26,728 nucleotides of DNA from Actinomycetota bacterium (GCA_013698195.1 JACCVK010000358.1:1-26728); one strand, 5' to 3'. Counted from the stretch's first letter, positions 18,344 through 26,728 are shown. A program made the numbers and translations. The notes: a model not told the origin generated them from the letters alone.

Positions 18344-18377
18344 GACTGGGAGGGTGGCCGACGGCGCCCTCCCAGTC
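18344..18377. terminator. GC-rich hairpin between convergent genes (possible bidirectional terminator)
   Basis: Perfect 11-bp stem GACTGGGAGGG (18344-18354) / CCCTCCCAGTC (18367-18377). No U-tract. Confidence 0.55.
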
Positions 18378-19599
18378 AGCTCTCGATCTTGCCCTCTGAC
18401 CGCGAGCGATCCATGCCTCGAAATGCAGGGTTGAAGAAGCCGTAGCCCACGACCGCGGAATAGCCGACGCCGATGACGAGAAACGTCTTCGCGACCCCGA
18501 TCGTGCCCACCAGCGCGCCGCCGACGAGAATTCCGAGAGGAATCGCGGCCCAGGCACCCGCCCTCACGGCCCCGAAGACTCGACCTCGCAGGTGGGTGGG
18601 TACGACCTCTGCCAGCACTGTGAAGATGAGCGGGTTAATAGGCCCGGCGGCAAACCCGACGACCGCTAGCGCAACCAGGGCGGCGGGCAACGTGGGACGC
18701 GTGGCCATCGCCAGGTAGACGAGCGGCAGCGCGGCGAAGCAACCGACGAACGTCCTCCGACGCGGGAGCCGGTGCCCGACGGCGCTGTACGCAAGCGCTC
18801 CGAGGAGCGCTGCGCCTCCGAAGACGCCGTACATGAGCCCCAGGTCGGTCGCACTGCCGTACTCATCTTCCGCAAAAACCGCCATGACGACCGGGAATGG
18901 CGCGTCGAGGAGGTTCGTGAGCAGCACCGTCAACACGACCGCGCGCAGGACGCGCTCGTTCCAGATGAAACGCATCCCCTCGGCAAGCTCTGCCAGGAAC
19001 CGGCCGGGCGCCTCCTCCTCGGCGTTCGCTCCCGGTCGCGGCACGAAGAAGGAGACAAGCGCAGCCGAGATCAGAAAGCTGGCGGAGTTCAGCCACAGCG
19101 CATTCGTGGCGCCGAATGCAGCGACGAGAAGGCCGCCGAGCGGGGCTCCGACGAGCAGCGCTCCCTGCTGGATGCCTCCTCGGATTCCGCTCGCGCGCTC
19201 CATGCGTATTCCGGCGAGCTCGACCATGTCGGGAAGGACCGCCGCTCGGGCCGTGGCTCCGGGCGCGTCGAGCAGTGCCCCGACGAACACGAGGATCATG
19301 AGCTGCCACAGCTCGATGCCGACGGTCAGGTGGAGCAGGGGGATAGCCGCGACAGCTCCGGCGCTGGCGAGATCGGCGACGACGCTCGTGGTGCGGAACC
19401 CGAGCCGATCCACGATGACGCCGCCGAAGAACGCGGCGATCACGATCGGCAGGAAGTTGAAGAAGACGACGAGCGCGGTGAACGTCGCGCTCCCCGTGGT
19501 CGTCAGCACGAACCACGGGATCGCGAGTTGCGCGATCGCGTTGCCGGTCAGCGAGATCGCGTCGGCAACGTAGAGCGCATTGAGCGGTGTTCGCTTCAC
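18376..19599 (-). CDS. MFS efflux transporter, DHA3 / Tap (Rv1258c)-like
   Basis: AISLTGNAIAQLAIPWFVLTTTGSA, GGVIVDRLGFRTTSVVAD, LLDAPGATARAAVLPD, LRGRVFG. Confidence 0.9.
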   Translation of the reverse strand: MKRTPLNALYVADAISLTGNAIAQLAIPWFVLTTTGSATFTALVVFFNFLPIVIAAFFGGVIVDRLGFRTTSVVADLASAGAVAAIPLLHLTVGIELWQLMILVFVGALLDAPGATARAAVLPDMVELAGIRMERASGIRGGIQQGALLVGAPLGGLLVAAFGATNALWLNSASFLISAALVSFFVPRPGANAEEEAPGRFLAELAEGMRFIWNERVLRAVVLTVLLTNLLDAPFPVVMAVFAEDEYGSATDLGLMYGVFGGAALLGALAYSAVGHRLPRRRTFVGCFAALPLVYLAMATRPTLPAALVALAVVGFAAGPINPLIFTVLAEVVPTHLRGRVFGAVRAGAWAAIPLGILVGGALVGTIGVAKTFLVIGVGYSAVVGYGFFNPAFRGMDRSRSEGKIES

Positions 19600-19607
19600 G
19601 CGCGAGC

Positions 19608-19639
19608 ACGCTAGTCGAGCCCGTGCCCGTCTCTACAAT
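19608..19639. promoter_or_regulatory. Back-to-back -10 boxes: TAGCGT (minus, 19608-19613) for the MFS and TACAAT (plus, 19634-19639) for the sulfatase-E1 operon
   Basis: They lie 8 and 10 nt upstream of the respective GTG starts; no RBS visible. Confidence 0.55.
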
Positions 19640-19649
19640 CCGCCCGGCT

Positions 19650-20843
19650 GTGAACCTCGTCGTCTATGTCTCGGACGCGCTCCGTGCGGATCATCTCGGT
19701 TGCTACGGCGCCCGCTTCCTGAAAACGCGCACCATCGACGAGCTTGCGGCGGGCGGTGTTCGCTTCGACCAGGCCATCAGTGCCGCGGCCTGGACGGCGC
19801 CCTCGATGACCTCGATGGTGACCGGCCTCTACGCCCACCGCCACGGTTACCTGCATTGGGACGTCGAGCTCGATCCTTCCCTCGAAACGATCTTCGGCGC
19901 ATTTGGTCGCTCGGGCTACGAGGTCGGGACGTTCGTGTTCGACCGCAACTACCTCTTCAAGGATCTCCCGGAGGCGAACGTCGCGGGCACGAGCGAGACG
20001 CTCGACGGCGCAATCGCGTGGCTGCGCGGGCACCGCGACCGGCCCTTCCTGCTCTTCTTCCACAACTGGGCGACCCACATGCCCTACGACATCCGCCACT
20101 CGGAACGCGGAGACTGGCTCGCGGCGAAGGAGGAGGTCATATCCGGGATCCAGGGCGACTCGGCCTCGGCGCTCGAGGCGACGCGGGAGGCCTACCGGCA
20201 AGCGGTGGAGCGCCAATCGGAGGTTCTCGTCGCCTCGCTCCTCGAGGAGCTTGACGCGCTCGGTCTCCGCGAGAGCACTGCAGTCGCATTCCTCTCGGAC
20301 CACGGCGAGTCGTGGGGCGAGCGGTTCGAGGACAAGCGGGACGTCCAGGGCGTGTACCACATGCACGGGGCGACGCTGCACGACGAGGTCGTCCAGATCC
20401 CGCTCATCCTCTCGTCCCCCGGGCGGCTCGACTCGCAGGTCGTGTACTCGCAGGTGCGCTCGGTCGACCTCGCGCCGACGCTGCTCGAGCTCGCGGGCAT
20501 TCCGGCCGGCGAGCTGGACGGCGAGTCGCTGCTCTCGCTCGTCGACGCGGGCGAGGAGGGCGACCGCCCCGCAATCCTCGCCGGGACAGATCGCGGCGCC
20601 CTCACCCAGCTTGCCGTCCGCCTCCCGCCGTGGAAGCTCATCGTCGACATCGAGACGGGGGAGGAGACCGTGTATCGCCTCGATGTGGATCCGCGCGAGC
20701 GCTCACCCCGATCCTCGGCCGAGGTTCCGGCGGAGATCCGCGACCTCCTCTACCGGGAGCTCGAGTCGGTCGAGCGTCGGGAGCTGACGCGGGAGGAGGA
20801 AGCGGTCGTGACGAAACGTCTTGCCGACCTCGGCTACCTCTGA
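19650..20843 (+). CDS. Sulfatase-like / alkaline phosphatase superfamily protein with Thr at the nucleophile position
   Basis: VSDALRADH, AWTAPSMTSMVTG, THMPY, SDHGE, HGATL..E...PLI, VDLAPTLL, C-terminal RLADLGY. No signal peptide. GTG 19650. Confidence 0.85.
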   Translation: MNLVVYVSDALRADHLGCYGARFLKTRTIDELAAGGVRFDQAISAAAWTAPSMTSMVTGLYAHRHGYLHWDVELDPSLETIFGAFGRSGYEVGTFVFDRNYLFKDLPEANVAGTSETLDGAIAWLRGHRDRPFLLFFHNWATHMPYDIRHSERGDWLAAKEEVISGIQGDSASALEATREAYRQAVERQSEVLVASLLEELDALGLRESTAVAFLSDHGESWGERFEDKRDVQGVYHMHGATLHDEVVQIPLILSSPGRLDSQVVYSQVRSVDLAPTLLELAGIPAGELDGESLLSLVDAGEEGDRPAILAGTDRGALTQLAVRLPPWKLIVDIETGEETVYRLDVDPRERSPRSSAEVPAEIRDLLYRELESVERRELTREEEAVVTKRLADLGYL

Positions 20844-20850
20844 TGCTCTC

Positions 20851-21753
20851 GTGACCGGCCTGTCGACGCTCCCGGCGACTCTCTATGCGCGGATGTACTT
20901 CATCCGACGTTTCGAGGAGACGCTCCTCGACCTCTTTGCCCAGGGGAAGCTCGTGGGCACGACGCACACGTACATCGGGCAAGAGGCAAACGCTGTCGGC
21001 ATCGTCGACCACCTCGAGCCCGAGCGCGACGTCGTCTTCTCGAACCACCGCTGCCACGGCCACTACCTCGCCTTCACCGACGACGCGTTCGGCCTGCTCA
21101 GCGAGGTCATGGGCAAGGCAACGGGCACGTGCGGTGGCAAGGGTGGAAGCCAGCACCTGTGCCGAGGGAACTTCTACTCGAACGGCGTGCTCGGCAGCAT
21201 CGTCCCCGTGGCGACCGGGATTGCGCTCGCGGAGAAGAAGAAGGGCACGGGCGCCGTCTCGACCGTGTTCCTCGGCGACGGCACGCTCGGCGAGGGCGTC
21301 ACGTACGAGTCGCTCAACATGGCGTCTCTCTGGCAGCTTCCGGTCCTCTTCGTCGTCGAGAACAATCACTACGCGCAGTCGACGCCGATCGAGCTCGAGC
21401 TCGCCGGCTCGATCGCGGCGCGCGGGTCGGCGTTCGGCGTCGAGGTCGCCGAGCTCGACACGACGGACGTGGCCGAGGTACACGAGACGGCAGGTTGGGC
21501 CGTAGCCCGGATCCGCGAGACGGGCGAGCCGTTCTTTCTCGTGCTGCACACCTACCGCTTCAGTCCGCACTCGAAGGGCGACGACAATCGCGATCCGGGC
21601 GAGATCGAGAAGCGGCGCGAGCGAGATCCGCTCCAGATCGCAGGCGACCGGCTCGGTCCGGCCGAGCGGGAGGGAATCGAGCAGGCCGCCGAGCAGCGAC
21701 TTGCCGAGACAGTCGCCGCGGCAGACGAAGCACCGGCTGCGGAGGCAGCGTGA
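20851..21753 (+). CDS. ThDP-dependent dehydrogenase E1 alpha subunit (PDH/acetoin DH-like)
   Basis: IRRFEE, GTTHTYIGQEA, SNHRCHGH, GGSQH, GDGTLGEG...ENN (ThDP motif), YRFSPHSKGD. GTG 20851 lies 7 nt after the sulfatase stop. Confidence 0.92.
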   Translation: MTGLSTLPATLYARMYFIRRFEETLLDLFAQGKLVGTTHTYIGQEANAVGIVDHLEPERDVVFSNHRCHGHYLAFTDDAFGLLSEVMGKATGTCGGKGGSQHLCRGNFYSNGVLGSIVPVATGIALAEKKKGTGAVSTVFLGDGTLGEGVTYESLNMASLWQLPVLFVVENNHYAQSTPIELELAGSIAARGSAFGVEVAELDTTDVAEVHETAGWAVARIRETGEPFFLVLHTYRFSPHSKGDDNRDPGEIEKRRERDPLQIAGDRLGPAEREGIEQAAEQRLAETVAAADEAPAAEAA

Positions 21754-22781
21754 GCGCTCCCTCCCACAAGCGCTGCGTCCAGGCGCTGAACGAAGGACTG
21801 CACGAGGTGTTCGCGGAGCGCGACGACGTCTATCTCCTCGGCGAGGACGTGCTCGACCCGTACGGCGGTGCGTTCAAGGTGACGCAAGGCCTTTCCGACG
21901 CCTTCCCCGATCGCGTGCTGACGACGCCGATCAGCGAGGGCGGCCTCTTCGGGGTGGCGGCCGGGATGTCCCTACGAGGACTGCGCCCCATCCTGGAGAT
22001 CATGTTCGGCGACTTCATCGCCCTCGGCCTCGACCAGGTTGTCAACGGGATCTCGAAGTTCCGCGAGATGTACGACGACCAGGTGACTGTGCCGCTCGTC
22101 GTCCGGACGCCGATGGGCGGGCGCCGCGGCTACGGGCCGACGCACAGCCAGTCGCTCGAGAAGCTTCTGCTCGGTATCCCGAACATCTGCGTCGTCGCCG
22201 CGAGCGAGTGCCACGATCTCGGCGGGCTGCTCGCGAACGCCGTGGACGACGACCGCCCCGTGTTCTTCATCGAGAACAAGCTCATGTACGGGCGGCCGAA
22301 CCGGCGTCCGGAGGAGGGACACATCGGCGAGCTCGCCGTCCGGGAGACCGGGACGCGATACCCGGCGCTCACGTTCTCGGGCACGGACTTCACCGAGGCG
22401 AGCGCCACGATCGTGACGTACGGCGGGATGGTGCCCATCGTGCTCGATGCAGTCACCGAGCTCATCCTCGAGCGGGAGCTCTTCTGCGAGGTTGTCGCGC
22501 TCTCCCAGCTCCTGCCGATGGAGCTTGAGCCGGTCTTCGAGTCCGTTGCGCGAACGGGTGCGCTCGTCACGGTCGAGGAGGGAACCTTGACCGGCGGCTT
22601 CGGCGCGGAGATCACCGCTCGGGTTCAGGAGGAGGCCTGGAGCGACCTGCGCCGCCCGGTGCAGCGCGTGGCGGCGCGCGACGGGATCATCCCGTCGGCG
22701 CGGCCGCTCGAGGACGCGATGCTGCCGAGCGCGGGCGACGTCGTCGAGGCGGTCGTCGCGCTCGAGGCCGTGCGAAGCTAG
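21750..22781 (+). CDS. ThDP-dependent dehydrogenase E1 beta subunit
   Basis: LLGEDV.DPYGGAFKVT, TTPISE, LRPILEIMF.DF, GYGPTHSQ, VEEG...GGFGAEI. GTGA overlap with E1 alpha; GGAGG RBS at 21741-21745. Confidence 0.92.
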   Translation: MSAPSHKRCVQALNEGLHEVFAERDDVYLLGEDVLDPYGGAFKVTQGLSDAFPDRVLTTPISEGGLFGVAAGMSLRGLRPILEIMFGDFIALGLDQVVNGISKFREMYDDQVTVPLVVRTPMGGRRGYGPTHSQSLEKLLLGIPNICVVAASECHDLGGLLANAVDDDRPVFFIENKLMYGRPNRRPEEGHIGELAVRETGTRYPALTFSGTDFTEASATIVTYGGMVPIVLDAVTELILERELFCEVVALSQLLPMELEPVFESVARTGALVTVEEGTLTGGFGAEITARVQEEAWSDLRRPVQRVAARDGIIPSARPLEDAMLPSAGDVVEAVVALEAVRS

Positions 22782-22788
22782 CAAGGTC

Positions 22789-24348
22789 ATGCTCGAGATC
22801 GTCCTGACGCGCGAGGACGCGAACACGGAGTTCGCGCTGCTTGCCGAGTGGCTTGTCGAGGACCGCGCCGAGGTCGCGCAGGGGCAGCCCGTCTGCGTCG
22901 TGGAGACGACAAAGGCGACGGTCGAGATCGAGTCGCCGGGTGCCGGGAGTCTCGTGCAGCTCTACGACGACGGCATCGAGGTCGAGCTTGGCAAGACGAT
23001 CGCGGTCGTCGCCGAGAGCGCGGACGAGCTCGAGACAGCGATCGCCCGCCGCGAGCCGAGATCTGCGGCCGAGTCCAAGCCGACCGACAGCAAGGCGACG
23101 AAGAAGGCGATCGAGCTCGCGGAACGCCATGGCATCGACCTCGCCTCGATCGAGAAGCGCGGCTTCATCACGGAGAAGGACGTCGAGGCAGCGATCGCGA
23201 AAGCCGCCGCGACTGCCGGCCCGTCCACACAACCCGCACTCGCCGGCATCTCGACAGCCGGCGTGTCGCTCCCCGAGTCGCTCGACCTCGACGAGGACGC
23301 CGGCCGGCTCGACGAGGGGTTCTTCGAGTCGCTGCGCACCGACCCCGAGGCGTTCCGCGCGCTTTCCTCGGACGAGAAGATCGAGCGCTACCGCGAAAAC
23401 GGGGCACAGATCGGCGAAGGCGTCGCCTTCGGCCTGCGAACCATCTTGGTGGCTCCTCGCATCGTCGTCTCGCCTGGTGTTGCCATCGGCCCGGACGGCA
23501 CTGTGGTCTGCGAGGAGCTGGTCGCGATCGGCGAGCTCACCCAGTTCGGACCGGATCTCGATCTCCGCTGCCGCCGTGCGTATATCGGCGCGGGCGTCTG
23601 GGCTGGGAGGTCGATCAGGATCGGCGGCGGCGGTCACCGCGACCCGTGGGCGACTCTCGCGGTCGGCGACCTTGCGTTCATCGGTGACGAGGCGTTCATC
23701 AACGTCTGCCGGCCCGTGCTCATCGGCCGCGAAGCGTTCGTGACCATGCGGTCGATGATCGTCACCCACAACATCGGCCACTCGCTGCTCGAAGGCTTCG
23801 AGAACCGGTTCGCTCCGGTCGTGCTCGAGGATCGCGCTCAGCTCGGGCTCGGCGCGGTGCTCTATGCGGGAGTGCGGATCGGCGCCGAGGCGATCGTCGC
23901 CTCGAACTCGTACGTCGTGGGCGACGTTCCGGCACGCGCCTTCGCGATCGGTGTCCCCGCCAAGGTCACGGGCAGTGCCGCGCACACGCTCTCCCGCTCC
24001 CGGCAGGCCGAGCTCGCGCGAAGGATGGTCGACGAGCTGCACGAGCTCCTCGCGCTTCGCGGACACGACGTCTCAGCGGTCAGCGACGGGGACGGGCGAG
24101 GGTTCGACGTCGAGGGGACGCGCGTCTACTTCACGCCGAGCTACGGCGGCGGCGGTGACAGCCCGGCCGTGGTGTTGACGCTCGAGCGCGCAGGAGACGT
24201 TCCCGATGGAGTCGGCGTGCTTGACCTGCTCGGACGGCAGGTGCACGGGAGCGGCGGAATCGTTCTCGACTCGGTCCGCGAGTTTTGCCGCAAGCGCGGG
24301 ATCCGCTTCGAGCCTGGCCCCTGGCGGTATCAGGGCGGTCTCATCTAG
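22789..24348 (+). CDS. Lipoyl domain + E1/E3-binding domain + left-handed beta-helix acyltransferase + unknown C-terminal domain fusion
   Basis: VVETTKATVEIESP (lipoyl Lys42, nt 22912). KATKKAIELAERHGIDLASI...ITEKDVE is PSBD-like. Hexapeptide repeats follow, then VTHNIGH...APVVLEDRAQLGLGAVLYAGVRIG..AIVASNSYVVGDVP....IGVPAKV (maltose/WcaF-type LbH). Confidence 0.88.
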   Translation: MLEIVLTREDANTEFALLAEWLVEDRAEVAQGQPVCVVETTKATVEIESPGAGSLVQLYDDGIEVELGKTIAVVAESADELETAIARREPRSAAESKPTDSKATKKAIELAERHGIDLASIEKRGFITEKDVEAAIAKAAATAGPSTQPALAGISTAGVSLPESLDLDEDAGRLDEGFFESLRTDPEAFRALSSDEKIERYRENGAQIGEGVAFGLRTILVAPRIVVSPGVAIGPDGTVVCEELVAIGELTQFGPDLDLRCRRAYIGAGVWAGRSIRIGGGGHRDPWATLAVGDLAFIGDEAFINVCRPVLIGREAFVTMRSMIVTHNIGHSLLEGFENRFAPVVLEDRAQLGLGAVLYAGVRIGAEAIVASNSYVVGDVPARAFAIGVPAKVTGSAAHTLSRSRQAELARRMVDELHELLALRGHDVSAVSDGDGRGFDVEGTRVYFTPSYGGGGDSPAVVLTLERAGDVPDGVGVLDLLGRQVHGSGGIVLDSVREFCRKRGIRFEPGPWRYQGGLI

Positions 24349-24764
24349 TGGCCGCCCCGGAGGCCGTCGAACGACTCGCGCAGCTCGCCCTCTTTGCCGA
24401 TCTCCGCTGGCCCGAGCTCGAAGCGGTCGCACACACTTTCGACGAGGAGGTCTTCGCCCAAGGCCAGCGGGTGCTGCGGCAGGGGATCACCGGTGGCTCG
24501 TTCTACGTCATCGTCGAGGGCGACGCCGCGGTCGTGATCGACGGCCAGGAGCGCGCACGCCTCGGGCGAGGCGACTTCTTCGGGGAGATCTCCGTCCTCC
24601 TCGGTGGCGTGCCGATCGCCGACGTGCGTGCCGAGACCCTCCTCCGCTGCCTCGTCCTGCCGGGCCCCGAGCTCGAAGGGTTCCTGCTCGAGCATCCGCC
24701 GGTCATGCTCCGCATGCTCCAGGCCGTCGCCCGTCGGCTCCGCGACGCGAGCCGGTGGAGCTAG
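24348..24764 (+). CDS. Stand-alone cyclic-nucleotide-binding (Crp-type) domain protein
   Basis: LFADL, VLRQG..G.SFYVIVEG, LGRGDFFGEISVL. GTG overlaps the preceding TAG (TAGTG). No HTH. Confidence 0.85.
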   Translation: MAAPEAVERLAQLALFADLRWPELEAVAHTFDEEVFAQGQRVLRQGITGGSFYVIVEGDAAVVIDGQERARLGRGDFFGEISVLLGGVPIADVRAETLLRCLVLPGPELEGFLLEHPPVMLRMLQAVARRLRDASRWS

Positions 24765-24768
24765 AGGC

Positions 24769-26256
24769 TTGAAGCCGTTCCCGCCCGGCGAGTACCCGGT
24801 CCTCGTCGTCGGGAGCGGGCCGGGCGGCCTGCAGGCGAGCTACTGCCTCCGGCGACTTGGCGTCGACCACGCCGTGCTCTCTGCCGACGATGGCCCCGGC
24901 GGGATGTTCCAGCGCTTCCCGCTCTTCGAGCGCCTCATTAGCTGGACACACGCAGGCGCAGACGCGGAGCGTGGGACGCGCGAGTACGAGCTCCACGACC
25001 AGAACAGCCTCGTCGCCGACGACCCCGCGCTCGGCGCGCTCGTTCCAGGCCAGCTTGCGGATGGGCACCGGCGACCGTCGCGAGACGAGATGGTCGCGGC
25101 CATGCGCTCGTTCGCCGAGCGCGCGCCCATCCCGGTGCGCTACGAGTGCCGCTGGGAGTCGACCAAGCAGGAAGACTCGGCTTACGTGCTCGCGACGAGC
25201 GACGGGGAGTACCGCTGTCGCGCTGCGGTCTTCGCCATCGGTATGACCCAGCCGTGGATACCCCCGATCCCGGGCCTCGAGCTCGAGCAGCACTATGTCA
25301 ACGTCGACTGCGCTCCGGATCGCTATCGCGGCAGGCGCGTCGTCATCGTCGGCAAGCGCAACTCGGCGTTCGAGATCGGCGAGGCGATCTCACGCCAGGG
25401 ACTGCGCGAGCTGACTCTCGTATCTCCGCGCTCGCCCGACCTCGGCCGCCTCGCGCGCTCGCCGCTCCGGCCCTGGTATCTGACGACGTACGACGAGCAC
25501 GTGCGCGGCGCGCCGGGACGATTCGTCCTGAACGCCTCGGTCGACCGGGTCGAACATCGCGAGGGCGGCTTCGTCGTCCACGCACTCGACCCGACTCGGT
25601 CGGAGCCGTTACTGCTGGAGGCCGACGACGTCATTGCCGCCACCGGCTTCTCGACGCCGTTGCAAGATCTGCCGGAGCTCGGCGTCGCGACCGTGCGGGA
25701 GGGGCGGCTACCCGCACTAAGCGCATTCTGGGAAAGCGTGACGGTGCCGGGCCTCTTCTTTGCAGGGAACGTCAGCGACGCGGCCCCGGGGCTCCGCAAG
25801 CACGGCGTCGCGAGCCTCTCGACGATGGTCGGCGGATTTCGCTACAACGCACGCGTTCTTGCGAGGCATTTGGCGGAGACGCTTTTCGGGATGTCCTCGG
25901 AGCGGCCGCGCATCGAGCGAGACTGCATCTCGGCCTTCCTGCTGCACGAGTTGAACCACTCACCCGAGCTCGCCTTCCAGAAGGGCTACCTCGCCCGCGT
26001 GCTGCGCGCGTCTGACGACGAAGGCGCGATCCTCGACGAGGGGATTCTTCCGCTCGAGGTCTTCGTGGACGGCTCCGCTGACGGTGTCGCAATCACGCTC
26101 GAGTTCGACGCGGAGGAGACGATCAGGCCGGTGGTCTACGTGCGGCACGATGGCGTGCTGCACGAGGAGCTGCTGGCGCCGCACCCGCTCCGTCGCTATG
26201 ACGGGCAGCCCTATCTCGAGGACGTCGAGAAGCTCCTGCGGCCGCTGCTCCGTTAG
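24769..26256 (+). CDS. FAD/NAD(P)-dependent oxidoreductase, FMO/FOXRED2-like
   Basis: VLVVGSGPGG (FAD), VVIVGKRNSAFE (NAD(P)), VIAATGF, GLFFAGN, GFRYNAR. TTG 24769, 4 nt after the cNMP gene stop. Confidence 0.85.
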   Translation: MKPFPPGEYPVLVVGSGPGGLQASYCLRRLGVDHAVLSADDGPGGMFQRFPLFERLISWTHAGADAERGTREYELHDQNSLVADDPALGALVPGQLADGHRRPSRDEMVAAMRSFAERAPIPVRYECRWESTKQEDSAYVLATSDGEYRCRAAVFAIGMTQPWIPPIPGLELEQHYVNVDCAPDRYRGRRVVIVGKRNSAFEIGEAISRQGLRELTLVSPRSPDLGRLARSPLRPWYLTTYDEHVRGAPGRFVLNASVDRVEHREGGFVVHALDPTRSEPLLLEADDVIAATGFSTPLQDLPELGVATVREGRLPALSAFWESVTVPGLFFAGNVSDAAPGLRKHGVASLSTMVGGFRYNARVLARHLAETLFGMSSERPRIERDCISAFLLHELNHSPELAFQKGYLARVLRASDDEGAILDEGILPLEVFVDGSADGVAITLEFDAEETIRPVVYVRHDGVLHEELLAPHPLRRYDGQPYLEDVEKLLRPLLR

Positions 26257-26269
26257 CCCGTTTCGCCCG

Positions 26270-26728
26270 TTAGGAGAGAGCCGCGGCCAGTGGAGCCGGT
26301 ACGTCCGGGGTGCGCGGGGGTAGCTTCGCGAGAAGCTCGCGTACGGCGTCCTCGTCTCCCCGAACCGTGACGGCATCGAGCTCACGGTTGACAAGGAGCT
26401 CGTAGAAGGACGCGACATCCCCTTCGACCACTGCTTGGGGCATCTCCGCGGAGCCGGCATAGGCCTCGTCGCCTTCGACGTATCCCACTTCGTCTCCGAC
26501 CCGAAACTCGATGCACGATGCCGTTGGCGGGAGCGCGATGCGCAACGCGCCTGCGAGCCAGCCTGGCTCGAGTACACCCTCCGAGGTCGGAGGCCCGAGG
26601 GAGCGCGCCCCCCAGTGCGCCAGCTGGTGCATCACCGGACGGAGTGCCTCGCCATACTCGGTCAGCTCGTAGACGGTGGAGGCGGCGGGCGGCGGGAGCT
26701 GCCGACGGTGGATCACGCCGCCTTGCTC
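26270..26728 (-). CDS. HxlR-family winged-helix regulator with SCP2-like C-terminal domain (5' end beyond the right edge)
   Basis: GVIHRRQLPPPAASTVYELTEYGEALRPV...LAHWG followed by IEFRVGDE...QAVVEGD. Confidence 0.85.
   Translation of the reverse strand, partial: EQGGVIHRRQLPPPAASTVYELTEYGEALRPVMHQLAHWGARSLGPPTSEGVLEPGWLAGALRIALPPTASCIEFRVGDEVGYVEGDEAYAGSAEMPQAVVEGDVASFYELLVNRELDAVTVRGDEDAVRELLAKLPPRTPDVPAPLAAALS

What the first reader, a model, noticed from the sequence alone, without database searches (positions are those of the whole stretch)
19650..26256. Six-gene coupled operon: candidate new ThDP/lipoate-driven acyl-tailoring system
Seen: sulfatase-like, E1 alpha, E1 beta, lipoyl-LbH, cNMP domain and flavoprotein genes on one strand, with gaps of 7, -4, 7, -1 and 4 nt behind a single TACAAT box. 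There is no canonical E2 core or dihydrolipoamide dehydrogenase in the window. Established precedent: QncN/QncL and NapB/NapD (quinocarcin, naphthyridinomycin) use PDH-like proteins to load a ketose-derived glycolyl unit onto a lipoyl arm for biosynthesis. Inference: this operon makes an acyl unit (acetyl, glycolyl or other) and installs it on a glycan or small molecule, with the AlkP-family enzyme and flavoprotein acting as further tailoring or recycling steps.
Basis: partly seen in the sequence, partly recalled or inferred. Interest (0 to 1): 0.85.

Follow-up and report, generated by a model that had tools for sequence, protein, structure and literature searches.

The report
Lipoyl-arm acyltransferase module with phosphoesterase partner
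A soil actinobacterium (Gaiellaceae) carries a conserved four-gene unit in which a pyruvate-dehydrogenase-like enzyme pair loads an acyl group onto a lipoic-acid swinging arm fused to a sugar-type beta-helix acyltransferase rather than to the usual CoA-forming core, which points to an undescribed, probably CoA-independent, way of putting acyl groups on sugars or other metabolites.

Summary
The TACAAT box is conserved in 60 of 64 related loci.

The conserved unit has four genes, not six. Across 80 Gaiellales species, E1 alpha/beta sit directly upstream of the lipoyl-LbH gene in 72/72 loci, and the Thr-nucleophile AlkP-fold gene is adjacent in 68/68. The cNMP and flavoprotein pair is adjacent in only 7/61. 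It was not found in five near-complete genomes that have the core.

The lipoyl-LbH protein keeps the lipoyl Lys, a subunit-binding domain and an invariant Thr-His of sugar O-acetyltransferases. It also has a confidently folded C-terminal domain with no match among solved structures.

Relatives at 26-45% identity keep E1 upstream in 27/31 loci. They lie in nonulosonic-acid and aminosugar clusters, most often beside PIG-L deacetylases. This supports an acyl-tailoring reading for the family.

In Gaiellaceae the partners are phosphoesterase-type enzymes and there are no glycan genes nearby. The acceptor and the acyl group therefore remain unknown there.

No characterised member and no paper on this system were found. 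Three earlier follow-ups in this scan met the same family on other DNA and read it the same way. I class it as a new variant of the 2-oxoacid dehydrogenase theme.

The parts
19634..19639 (+). -10 box TACAAT, first base 16 nt before the AlkP start codon; likely a short-leader or leaderless promoter of the unit
   Evidence: Sequence read. A TANNNT box at the same offset occurs in 60/64 orthologous loci, mostly inside the conserved GTCACTACAATCCGCC.
19650..20843 (+). AlkP-superfamily (sulfatase-fold) enzyme with a Thr nucleophile (Thr49, nt 19794-19796). Not a formylglycine sulfatase. Probable phospho-ester hydrolase or phosphotransferase.
   Evidence: PF00884 1.7e-35. Alignment to solved sulfatases places Thr at the Cys/FGly site and Met at the Arg site, W-T-A-P-S-M. 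Thr49 and the D...DH metal ligands are kept in the 70 orthologous segments aligned. Adjacent to the E1 genes in 68/68 loci.
20851..21753 (+). ThDP-dependent E1 alpha subunit (PDH-like, non-housekeeping paralogue); ThDP motif GDG...NN at residues 142-172 (nt 21274-21366)
   Evidence: PF00676 5.9e-56; TIGR03182 250 bits, below its 394-bit cut-off. Closest solved structure is human PDH E1 alpha. Motif read. Two other E1 alpha copies in the genome score higher against PF00676.
21750..22781 (+). E1 beta subunit; its start overlaps the E1 alpha stop by 4 nt
   Evidence: PF02779 and PF02780. Closest solved structures are PDH and 2-oxoacid DH E1 beta. Junction GTGA read.
22789..24348 (+). Lipoyl-PSBD-LbH-Cterm fusion, an E2-like protein with its core replaced. 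Lipoyl domain residues 1-87 (Lys42, nt 22912-22914). Subunit-binding-like helices about residues 100-142 (nt 23086-23214). Left-handed beta-helix acyltransferase residues 190-400 (nt 23356-23988), with invariant Thr326-His327 (His at nt 23767-23769). C-terminal alpha/beta domain residues 403-519 (nt 23995-24345).
   Evidence: Pfam and NCBIfam. His aligned with the catalytic-His stretch of maltose and galactoside acetyltransferases. Family invariants K42, T326 and H327 in 53 sequences. AF2 model pLDDT 92.8. LbH Z about 20 to LpxD, LpxA, QdtC, NeuO and OatWY; lipoyl domain Z about 12. C-terminal domain pLDDT 95.5 with no PDB match above Z 4.5.
24348..24764 (+). Stand-alone cyclic-nucleotide-binding-domain protein. 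Accessory, found in this clade only.
   Evidence: PF00027 4.5e-14. Its start overlaps the upstream stop by 1 nt. With the flavoprotein it is adjacent to the core in only 7/61 loci.
24769..26256 (+). FAD/NAD(P) flavoprotein (Pyr_redox_3; FMO, ArsO and YpdA-like) with a C-terminal extension of about 150 aa. Accessory, found in this clade only.
   Evidence: PF13738 2.7e-31. Weak matches to flavin monooxygenases and thioredoxin reductases. No CxxC or CxxxxC motif (read). Not found in 5 near-complete genomes that have the core.
18376..19599 (-). Divergent MFS transporter. A frequent neighbour, not shown to belong to the unit.
   Evidence: PF07690 and PF05977. Present upstream in 23/55 loci.
26270..26728 (-). 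Convergent HxlR-type regulator, running off the window end. A frequent neighbour, not shown to belong to the unit.
   Evidence: PF01638. Within 7 kb downstream in 27/48 loci.

Best explanation
The functional unit is AlkP-E1alpha-E1beta-LipLbH. E1 is a ThDP enzyme of the PDH type. It decarboxylates a 2-oxoacid, or cleaves a ketol or ketose, and reductively acylates lipoyl-Lys42 of the fourth protein. That protein keeps the E2 accessories (lipoyl domain and subunit-binding domain), so it can dock E1 and the housekeeping E3. The CoA-forming E2 core is replaced by a trimeric-type beta-helix acyltransferase. The S-acyl-dihydrolipoyl arm takes the place of acyl-CoA or acyl-ACP as donor. His327 activates a hydroxyl or amino group of a non-CoA acceptor, and E3 (encoded on contig C24) re-oxidises the arm. 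In distant relatives the acceptor is most likely an aminosugar or nonulosonic-acid precursor that a neighbouring PIG-L or CE4 deacetylase has just de-N-acetylated, giving an exchange of N-acetyl for another acyl group. In Gaiellaceae the unmasking or substrate-supplying partner is instead the Thr-nucleophile AlkP-fold enzyme, usually together with an NPP-type phosphodiesterase, so the donor or acceptor is probably a phosphorylated metabolite. Shown here: domain content, conserved residues, synteny and phyletic co-occurrence. Inferred: direct transfer to a non-CoA acceptor, the role of AlkP, and reoxidation by E3. Unknown: the acyl group and the acceptor.
For: The module is conserved: E1 alpha/beta lie directly upstream of LipLbH in 72/72 Gaiellales loci and 27/31 distant loci. 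AlkP is adjacent in 68/68. L097 shows two successive AlkP-E1a-E1b-LipLbH sets by tblastn. AlkP and the NPP orthologue were not found in five near-complete same-family genomes that lack LipLbH, while the NPP orthologue is present in four of four related genomes that have it. Lys42 and Thr326-His327 are invariant across 53 relatives down to 25% identity. The His aligns with the catalytic-His stretch of maltose and galactoside O-acetyltransferases. The LbH domain is structurally closest to LpxD and LpxA, which take carrier-protein-tethered acyl thioesters, and to sugar N/O-acyltransferases. A PSBD is detected by Pfam in relatives. Of 127 neighbouring ORFs in distant loci, 14 are PIG-L, 11 NeuB, and 6 each DegT, Polysacc_synt_2, Epimerase_2 and CTP_transf_3, but only 4 are separate hexapeptide transferases. 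L124 is an aminosugar and glycosyltransferase cluster. The Gaiellales paralogue sits with a CE4 deacetylase. E2, E3 and a lipoate-ligase family gene exist elsewhere in the genome.
Against: No biochemistry exists for any member. The window and its Gaiellales relatives show no glycosyltransferase or sugar-nucleotide gene next to the unit. The AlkP and NPP partners would fit a catabolic pathway equally well. An LbH active site with a general-base His could also serve CoA-SH as acceptor. In L124/L125 a separate LbH transferase follows LipLbH, which would fit a route through acyl-CoA. The neighbour tallies rest on crude ORF calling, and the genomes compared are related, so the counts are not independent.
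Confidence: 0.55

Rival explanations
1. A non-canonical E2. The complex is a catabolic 2-oxoacid or ketol (acetoin-like) dehydrogenase. Its LbH domain does the E2 job and passes the acyl group from dihydrolipoamide to CoA. AlkP and the NPP-type enzyme release the substrate from a phosphorylated precursor, and the MFS protein imports it.
For: The protein keeps all E2 accessories, that is the lipoyl domain and PSBD. The Gaiellaceae context is phosphoesterases plus a transporter and housekeeping genes, not glycan genes. From my own knowledge, an E2 with a replaced catalytic fold has a precedent in AcoC of Pseudomonas and Ralstonia (lipoyl domain plus alpha/beta hydrolase); NF011457 matched only the lipoyl part here. 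Also from my own knowledge, chloramphenicol acetyltransferases exist in both the E2-like fold and the LbH fold, so the two folds can do equivalent chemistry.
Against: Distant members lie inside nonulosonic-acid and aminosugar biosynthetic clusters next to de-N-acetylases, where a catabolic dehydrogenase makes little sense, and most of these clusters show no other candidate acyltransferase. No acyl-CoA-consuming enzyme is conserved next to the unit in Gaiellales.
Confidence: 0.27
2. The six genes work as one system. The flavoprotein acts as a dedicated dihydrolipoyl oxidase (an E3 surrogate) or as a tailoring oxygenase, and the cNMP-domain protein is its regulator.
For: In this window the cNMP gene overlaps the LipLbH stop by 1 nt and the flavoprotein gene follows after 4 nt. 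The same arrangement occurs in 7 related loci. The flavoprotein has weak similarity to YpdA-type disulfide reductases.
Against: The pair is adjacent in only 7/61 loci and separated by a roughly 4 kb insert in three others. It was not found at E<=1e-20 in five 92-97% complete genomes that have the core. It has no redox-active Cys pair (read). A true E3 lies next to the canonical E2.
Confidence: 0.08
3. The LbH domain is catalytically dead and serves only as a trimeric scaffold. The acyl group is removed by hydrolysis or by another enzyme, such as the AlkP-fold protein.
For: No activity has been measured. LbH proteins can be purely structural (the dynactin and gamma-CA-like matches).
Against: Thr326-His327 are invariant at the catalytic position across 53 sequences of 25-78% identity.
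Confidence: 0.05

Closest known systems
Dihydrolipoyl acyltransferase (E2) of alpha/beta-E1 type 2-oxoacid dehydrogenase complexes (PDH, BCKDH)
   Same: N-terminal lipoyl domain with the Lys in an E-T-x-K-A hairpin. A peripheral subunit-binding domain follows. The gene lies directly after E1 alpha and E1 beta. E3 is present in the genome.
   Different: The CAT-like catalytic and core-forming domain (PF00198) is absent. It is replaced by a left-handed beta-helix acyltransferase plus a C-terminal domain with no solved-structure match. No E3 lies in the operon. The likely acceptor is not CoA.
QncN/QncL/QncM (and SclQ1-4) glycolicacyl-loading system of quinocarcin-type NRPS pathways (PMC6335953 and its ref. 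34)
   Same: PDH/transketolase-like ThDP proteins load a C2 unit onto a lipoyl arm for biosynthesis rather than for energy metabolism. The acyl group goes to a non-CoA acceptor.
   Different: QncL and SclQ4 carry a canonical E2-type acyltransferase catalytic domain and deliver the unit to an ACP in an NRPS line. Here the transferase is an LbH domain, no ACP or NRPS was seen among the window genes scanned, and the context is sugar or phosphoester enzymes.
Hexapeptide (LbH) sugar acyltransferases: maltose/galactoside O-acetyltransferases, NeuO/OatWY, QdtC, WlbB, and the acyl-ACP-dependent LpxA/LpxD
   Same: The fold (Z about 20). The catalytic-His motif of the MAT/GAT group. Use of a thioester donor on a long flexible arm, as LpxA and LpxD do with acyl-ACP.
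   Different: These enzymes are stand-alone and use acyl-CoA or acyl-ACP. None is fused to a lipoyl domain and PSBD or paired with an E1.
AcoC of the acetoin dehydrogenase system in Pseudomonas and Ralstonia (from my own knowledge; NF011457)
   Same: A lipoyl-bearing 'E2' whose catalytic part is not the canonical E2 fold, encoded after E1 alpha/beta.
   Different: AcoC carries an alpha/beta-hydrolase fold, makes acetyl-CoA in catabolism, and has its E3 (AcoL) in the operon.
Thr-nucleophile AlkP-superfamily phosphotransferases and phosphodiesterases (LtaS, EptA/MCR, NPP), compared with S1 formylglycine sulfatases
   Same: The AlkP gene product has the sulfatase (PF00884) fold with a D / T / D-H metal and nucleophile set like LtaS, EptA and phosphonate monoester hydrolase.
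   Different: It is soluble, with no membrane anchor or signal peptide evident. It lacks the C/S-x-P-x-R motif of sulfatases. Its substrate is unknown.

Membership tests
2-oxoacid dehydrogenase complex (alpha/beta-E1 type) | ThDP-dependent E1 alpha/beta with a GDG...NN motif and catalytic His/Glu | tested here: met
   PF00676, PF02779 and PF02780. GDG-x27-NN at E1 alpha residues 142-172. The PHS stretch in alpha and the TPISEGG and GPTHSQS stretches in beta were read and matched from memory to the human PDH catalytic sites; they were not aligned here.
2-oxoacid dehydrogenase complex (alpha/beta-E1 type) | Lipoyl domain with a conserved lipoyl-lysine | tested here: met
   PF00364 3.3e-10. K42 is invariant in 53 relatives. 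Z about 12 to PDH L2 lipoyl domains. Actual lipoylation was not testable.
2-oxoacid dehydrogenase complex (alpha/beta-E1 type) | Peripheral subunit-binding domain | tested here: met
   PF02817 is detected in relatives. The window sequence ATKKAIELAERHGIDLASIEKRGFITEKDV aligns in the same block. NF004309 (SucB) matches residues 16-148. Helices at 105-113 and 129-142 in the model. Pfam itself did not call it in the window protein.
2-oxoacid dehydrogenase complex (alpha/beta-E1 type) | E2 catalytic/core domain (PF00198, CAT-like) | tested here: not met
   The window protein has no PF00198 match. The only PF00198 match in the genome is on contig C24.
2-oxoacid dehydrogenase complex (alpha/beta-E1 type) | Dihydrolipoamide dehydrogenase (E3) available | tested here: met
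   E3 is not in the window. A Pyr_redox_dim gene lies next to the canonical E2 on C24.
QncN/QncL/QncM-type glycolicacyl loading system | Lipoyl protein with an E2-type acyltransferase domain delivering to a dedicated ACP in an NRPS cluster | tested here: not met
   The transferase here is an LbH domain. No ACP or NRPS family appears in the Pfam results for the window genes scanned. The QncL architecture is taken from PMC6335953.
QncN/QncL/QncM-type glycolicacyl loading system | Ketose phosphate as C2 donor (glycolyl unit) | not testable with these tools
   E1 substrate specificity cannot be read from the sequence. The closest solved E1 is PDH.
Hexapeptide (LbH) acyltransferases, MAT/GAT group | Left-handed beta-helix fold | tested here: met
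   AF2 model pLDDT 92.8. Z 18-20 to LpxD, LpxA, QdtC, OatWY, NeuO and WlbB. Foldseek E about 1e-6 to VCA0836 and NeuO.
Hexapeptide (LbH) acyltransferases, MAT/GAT group | Catalytic general-base His | tested here: met
   VTH327NIGH aligns with the ASHSLDY and ATHPLDPH stretches of 3ect and 2ic7. T326-H327 are invariant.
Hexapeptide (LbH) acyltransferases, MAT/GAT group | Acyl-CoA as donor | not testable with these tools
   The fusion to a lipoyl domain and the obligatory E1 neighbour argue for an acyl-lipoyl donor, but this is inference.
S1 formylglycine sulfatases | C/S-x-P-x-R motif that is converted to formylglycine | tested here: not met
   W-T-A-P-S-M in the window. Thr aligns with the Cys and Met with the Arg. 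The 70 orthologous segments read WT[AC]P[SA]x.
Thr-nucleophile AlkP-superfamily phosphoesterases and transferases | Thr nucleophile plus Asp and Asp-His metal ligands | tested here: met
   Thr49, xDALR and SDHGE are conserved in nearly all orthologues. Activity was not tested.

The most novel reading that the evidence does not exclude
E1 plus lipoyl-LbH is a CoA- and ACP-independent acylation machine. A lipoyl swinging arm hands 2-oxoacid- or ketose-derived acyl groups (for example glycolyl, propionyl or hydroxyacyl) directly to an LbH transferase. In many uncultured phyla this re-acylates de-N-acetylated nonulosonic-acid or aminosugar precursors, and so generates the unusual N-acyl groups of bacterial surface sugars. 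In Gaiellaceae it has been re-coupled to Thr-nucleophile phosphoesterases to acylate a dephosphorylated metabolite.
Probability: 0.5. Interest if true: 0.8.

Novelty: new variant of a known kind. Interest (0 to 1): 0.68.

Why it matters
If the lipoyl arm is the direct acyl donor for a beta-helix transferase, this would be a third kind of thioester carrier for such enzymes, beside CoA and ACP. It would also link central 2-oxoacid or ketose pools straight to the decoration of sugars.

It would give a testable genetic origin for non-acetyl N-acyl groups on legionaminic- and pseudaminic-type sugars. The Tannerella literature read here states that knowledge of the enzymes that modify these sugars is scarce (PMC5378307).

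The family is large: 157 clusters at 50% identity with E<1e-30. It is abundant in soil Gaiellaceae, with 999 or more close relatives. Yet it is annotated only as 'biotin/lipoyl-containing protein' or 'isoleucine patch acetyltransferase'.

The Thr-nucleophile, apparently cytoplasmic sulfatase-fold partner and the C-terminal domain without a solved-structure match are further uncharacterised pieces.

Tried and rejected
1. Six-gene unit: rejected by synteny and by the failure to find the flavoprotein in genomes that have the core.

2. Flavoprotein as E3 surrogate: it has no Cys pair, a true E3 lies elsewhere, and it is dispensable.

3. Formylglycine sulfatase: rejected because Thr sits at the nucleophile position.

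4. Phosphonate catabolism, with the NPP neighbour as phosphonoacetate hydrolase PhnA: the NPP protein matched no NCBIfam model, so this has no support.

5. Transcript evidence: the only run holding the sequence is of unknown kind, with fragmentary low-depth contigs. It says nothing about co-transcription.

6. Fold of the C-terminal domain: best Z 4.5 (frataxin/CyaY) and Foldseek E>0.3. The Atlas feature search gave only scores below 0.8. No assignment was possible.

7. The search for related loci with the broad alignments A1 and A2 failed for lack of a conserved stretch. A3 returned only Gaiellales. A4 on metagenomes gave the distant loci.

8. A phylum-wide genome sample of 400 genomes found no other copy, because few close relatives were drawn. 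The order-level sample found it in 13/14 genomes of the same genus and patchily in the family.

9. Literature searches (one search failed on a too-short term) found no paper describing E1 plus lipoyl-LbH systems. The library holds open-access papers only.

10. The ORF calling for the neighbour tallies was crude. It took the longest ORFs or used a GC3 filter, and only same-strand ORFs went into A5.

Full report
**Observation**

The window is contig C158 of a 2.05 Mb, 74%-complete MAG. Names attached to near-identical proteins and loci place it in Gaiellaceae, class Thermoleophilia.

- 19650-20843: sulfatase/AlkP fold.
- 20851-21753: E1 alpha.
- 21750-22781: E1 beta.
- 22789-24348: lipoyl domain plus hexapeptide repeats.
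- 24348-24764: cNMP-binding domain.
- 24769-26256: Pyr_redox_3 flavoprotein.

The junctions are exactly 7, -4, 7, -1 and 4 nt. TACAAT at 19634-19639 begins 16 nt before the GTG start. A TANNNT box at that offset, mostly inside GTCACTACAATCCGCC, is found in 60 of 64 orthologous loci. It is therefore a conserved promoter-like element, probably for a short-leader or leaderless mRNA. The generic sigma-70 scan sees no -35/-10 pair and no internal terminator.

The window has no E2 core or E3. The genome has both, adjacent to each other, on contig C24. The genes flanking the unit are a divergent MFS transporter and a convergent HxlR regulator. Beyond them lie housekeeping genes: aspartate kinase, sigma-70, MscS and others.

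**What is conserved**

I fetched the neighbourhoods of 14 genomes of the same family and of 80 Gaiellales species representatives. The counts below use only loci with enough flanking sequence.

| Feature | Loci |
|---|---|
| E1 alpha/beta directly upstream of the lipoyl-LbH gene | 72/72 |
| AlkP-fold gene directly upstream | 66/68 |
| AlkP-fold gene adjacent on either side | 68/68 |
| cNMP and flavoprotein pair adjacent | 7/61 |
| Flavoprotein within 6.5 kb downstream | 8/48 |

- In several loci the pair lies about 4 kb downstream; in L032 the intervening gene is an S8 protease.
- The flavoprotein was not found at all (E<=1e-20) in five genomes of 92-97% completeness that have the core.
- One locus, L097, shows two successive AlkP-E1a-E1b-LipLbH sets by tblastn.
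- The unit is therefore four genes. The last two genes of the finding are a clade-specific addition that is translationally coupled in this genome.

A further partner appears in most relatives but not in this window. It is an NPP-type (PF01663) AlkP-superfamily gene within 7.6 kb upstream in 41/55 loci.
- Its orthologue (72-74% identity) is present in four of four related genomes that have the module, even where it lies far from the core.
- The own, incomplete genome showed only a 31%-identical paralogue.
- Neither it nor the AlkP-fold protein was found in five 96-100% complete same-family genomes that lack LipLbH.
- An ASST-like gene follows LipLbH in a few deep-branching Gaiellales (4/52).
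- The genomes compared are kin, so these counts overstate independence.

**The central protein**

The 519-residue protein has these parts:
- A lipoyl domain, with Lys42 in E-T-T-K-A.
- A linker.
- A segment matching the peripheral subunit-binding domain. PF02817 is called in relatives, and SucB/AcoC-type models cover residues 4-148.
- A left-handed beta-helix.
- A C-terminal domain of about 117 residues ending in the motif REFxRKRGIRFxPxPWRY.

In an alignment of 53 full-length relatives of 25-78% identity, the invariant residues include Lys42 and Thr326-His327. The His aligns with the catalytic-His stretch of maltose and galactoside O-acetyltransferases.

AlphaFold gives pLDDT 92.8.
- The beta-helix matches LpxD, LpxA, QdtC, OatWY, NeuO and WlbB at Z 18-20. 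These are sugar N/O-acyltransferases. LpxA and LpxD take their acyl group from a carrier-protein arm.
- The N-terminus matches PDH lipoyl domains at Z about 12.
- The C-terminal domain folds confidently on its own (pLDDT 95.5) but matches no solved structure above noise.

The protein is therefore an E2 with all its accessories, in which only the CoA-forming core has been exchanged.

**E1 and AlkP**

- E1 alpha has the GDG...NN ThDP motif. E1 alpha and E1 beta also have stretches that I matched from memory to the catalytic His and Glu sites of human PDH E1.
- The closest solved structure is human PDH E1.
- E1 alpha scores below the equivalog cut-offs.
- Two other E1 alpha copies in the genome fit the E1 family model better, so this E1 is a specialised paralogue.
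- The AlkP-fold protein has Thr where sulfatases have the formylglycine Cys, and Met or Thr where they have Arg. Thr49 and the Asp and Asp-His metal ligands are conserved in 70 orthologous segments.
- This is the LtaS/EptA/phosphonate-monoesterase type of site, which points to phosphoester chemistry rather than sulfate chemistry. I saw no signal peptide or membrane anchor, but I did not run a predictor.

**The wider family**

- An exhaustive profile-free search finds 157 clusters at 50% identity with E<1e-30. Full-length relatives go down to about 27% identity.
- Names attached to a few of them place them in MAGs of Chloroflexi, Zixibacteria, Saccharimonadales and other groups. No characterised or named member turned up, including in AlphaFold DB clusters.
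- In 31 distant loci with at least 1.5 kb of upstream sequence, E1 alpha/beta lie directly upstream in 27 and elsewhere in the cluster in 2 more.
- A tally of 127 same-strand neighbouring ORFs gives PIG-L 14, NeuB 11, SAF 9, and DegT, Polysacc_synt_2, Epimerase_2 and CTP_transf_3 at 6 each, but only 4 separate hexapeptide transferases. This is the gene set of legionaminic/pseudaminic-type nonulosonic-acid pathways plus a de-N-acetylase.
- Locus L043 reads E1-LipLbH-Epimerase_2-PIG-L-NeuB.
- Locus L124 places the module between a GFO oxidoreductase and an LbH/DegT pair, among glycosyltransferases and a Bac_transf priming enzyme.
- A high-GC soil group is more mixed, but PIG-L is again its commonest partner.
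- A Gaiellales paralogue cluster reads fused E1-CE4 deacetylase-LipLbH-like.
- Shorter lipoyl domains fused to PglD/NeuD-type transferases accompany the long form in some clusters.

**Mechanism**

The simplest reading has three steps.
1. E1 reductively acylates Lys42.
2. The S-acyl-dihydrolipoyl arm enters the LbH active site in place of acyl-pantetheine, and His327 activates the acceptor.
3. The housekeeping E3, recruited through the PSBD, re-oxidises the arm.

In the nonulosonic-acid clusters, a de-N-acetylase recurs and a second acyltransferase is usually missing. This argues that LipLbH itself re-acylates the freed amine, giving an N-acyl exchange. All of this is inference.

In Gaiellaceae the deacetylase slot is taken by Thr-nucleophile phosphoesterases, and no glycan genes are adjacent. 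These genomes do each have one NeuB elsewhere. The donor or acceptor there is probably a phosphorylated metabolite, and I cannot name the product.

The main rival is that the LbH domain simply passes the acyl group to CoA, so that the unit is a catabolic dehydrogenase with an unorthodox E2. AcoC of Pseudomonas and Ralstonia is a precedent from my own knowledge. This rival fits the Gaiellaceae context about as well and fits the distant contexts poorly. I put the direct-transfer reading at 0.55 and the rival at 0.27.

**Comparison with the known, and verdict**

- The system shares E1, the lipoyl domain, the PSBD and a requirement for E3 with 2-oxoacid dehydrogenase complexes. It fails their defining E2 core.
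- It shares the idea of biosynthetic use of a lipoyl-bound acyl unit with QncN/QncL/QncM. It lacks their E2-type transferase, ACP and NRPS context.
- Its transferase is a member of the LbH acyltransferases by fold and by catalytic His.
- I found no paper on such a system.
- Earlier follow-ups in this scan reached the same reading on three other genomes. I confirmed it independently here.

I class the finding as a new variant of a known kind.

Noticed in passing
L097:3075-13700 (Thermoleophilia MAG contig CAWHBH010000036.1): tblastn shows two successive AlkP-E1a-E1b-LipLbH sets (73-88% identity to the window proteins). This suggests a tandem duplication and that these four genes move as one unit.
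   Followed up: partly
L039:6654-11116 and L040:4252-8749 (genomes G553 and G471): A paralogous cluster in Gaiellales: fused E1 alpha-beta, a CE4 polysaccharide deacetylase, then a lipoyl/E3-binding/LbH protein only about 28% identical to the window protein.
   Followed up: partly
L129, L130, L134; proteins P0348-P0357; AFDB D1CIX7 and E8N370: A second, shorter family (about 360-385 aa) fuses a lipoyl domain to a PglD/NeuD-type LbH N-acetyltransferase. It sits beside the long form in some nonulosonic-acid clusters. By my reading of the accessions, which is not checked, it also occurs in cultured Chloroflexi-related organisms.
   Followed up: no
L110:5327-6730, L119:11595-13067 and other deep-branching Gaiellales loci: An NPP-type PF01663 gene lies upstream of the core in most Gaiellales, and an ASST-like PF14269 (Arylsulfotran_2) gene lies downstream in a few. 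Neither matches any NCBIfam model. The NPP orthologue co-occurs with the module across genomes.
   Followed up: partly
window:19620-19649: The roughly 20 nt stretch GTC(A/T)CTACAATCCGCC(C/G)... before the AlkP start is conserved well beyond the -10 hexamer across most orthologous loci. It could include an operator or a 5' element.
   Followed up: partly
window:23995-24345 (LipLbH residues 403-519): A helix / antiparallel sheet / helix domain with nearly invariant R497, G504, P509 and W512. It is confidently predicted but has no solved structural relative. It also occurs on LbH proteins that lack a lipoyl domain (AFDB hits A0A2G9VDB9 and A0A561T6C5).
   Followed up: yes
window:17244-18332 (+): A ScyD/ScyE-family beta-propeller protein (NF033206, 4.2e-55) lies next to the MFS gene. 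It occupies the position where most relatives have the NPP-type gene.
   Followed up: no
window:14642-15997 (-): A 451-aa protein whose only Pfam hit is a C-terminal SHOCT domain. Otherwise it is unannotated.
   Followed up: no
G000:C140:3161-3482 (-): A second Pyr_redox_dim-containing gene in the own genome is interrupted by an in-frame TAG. It may be a pseudogene or an assembly error.
   Followed up: no
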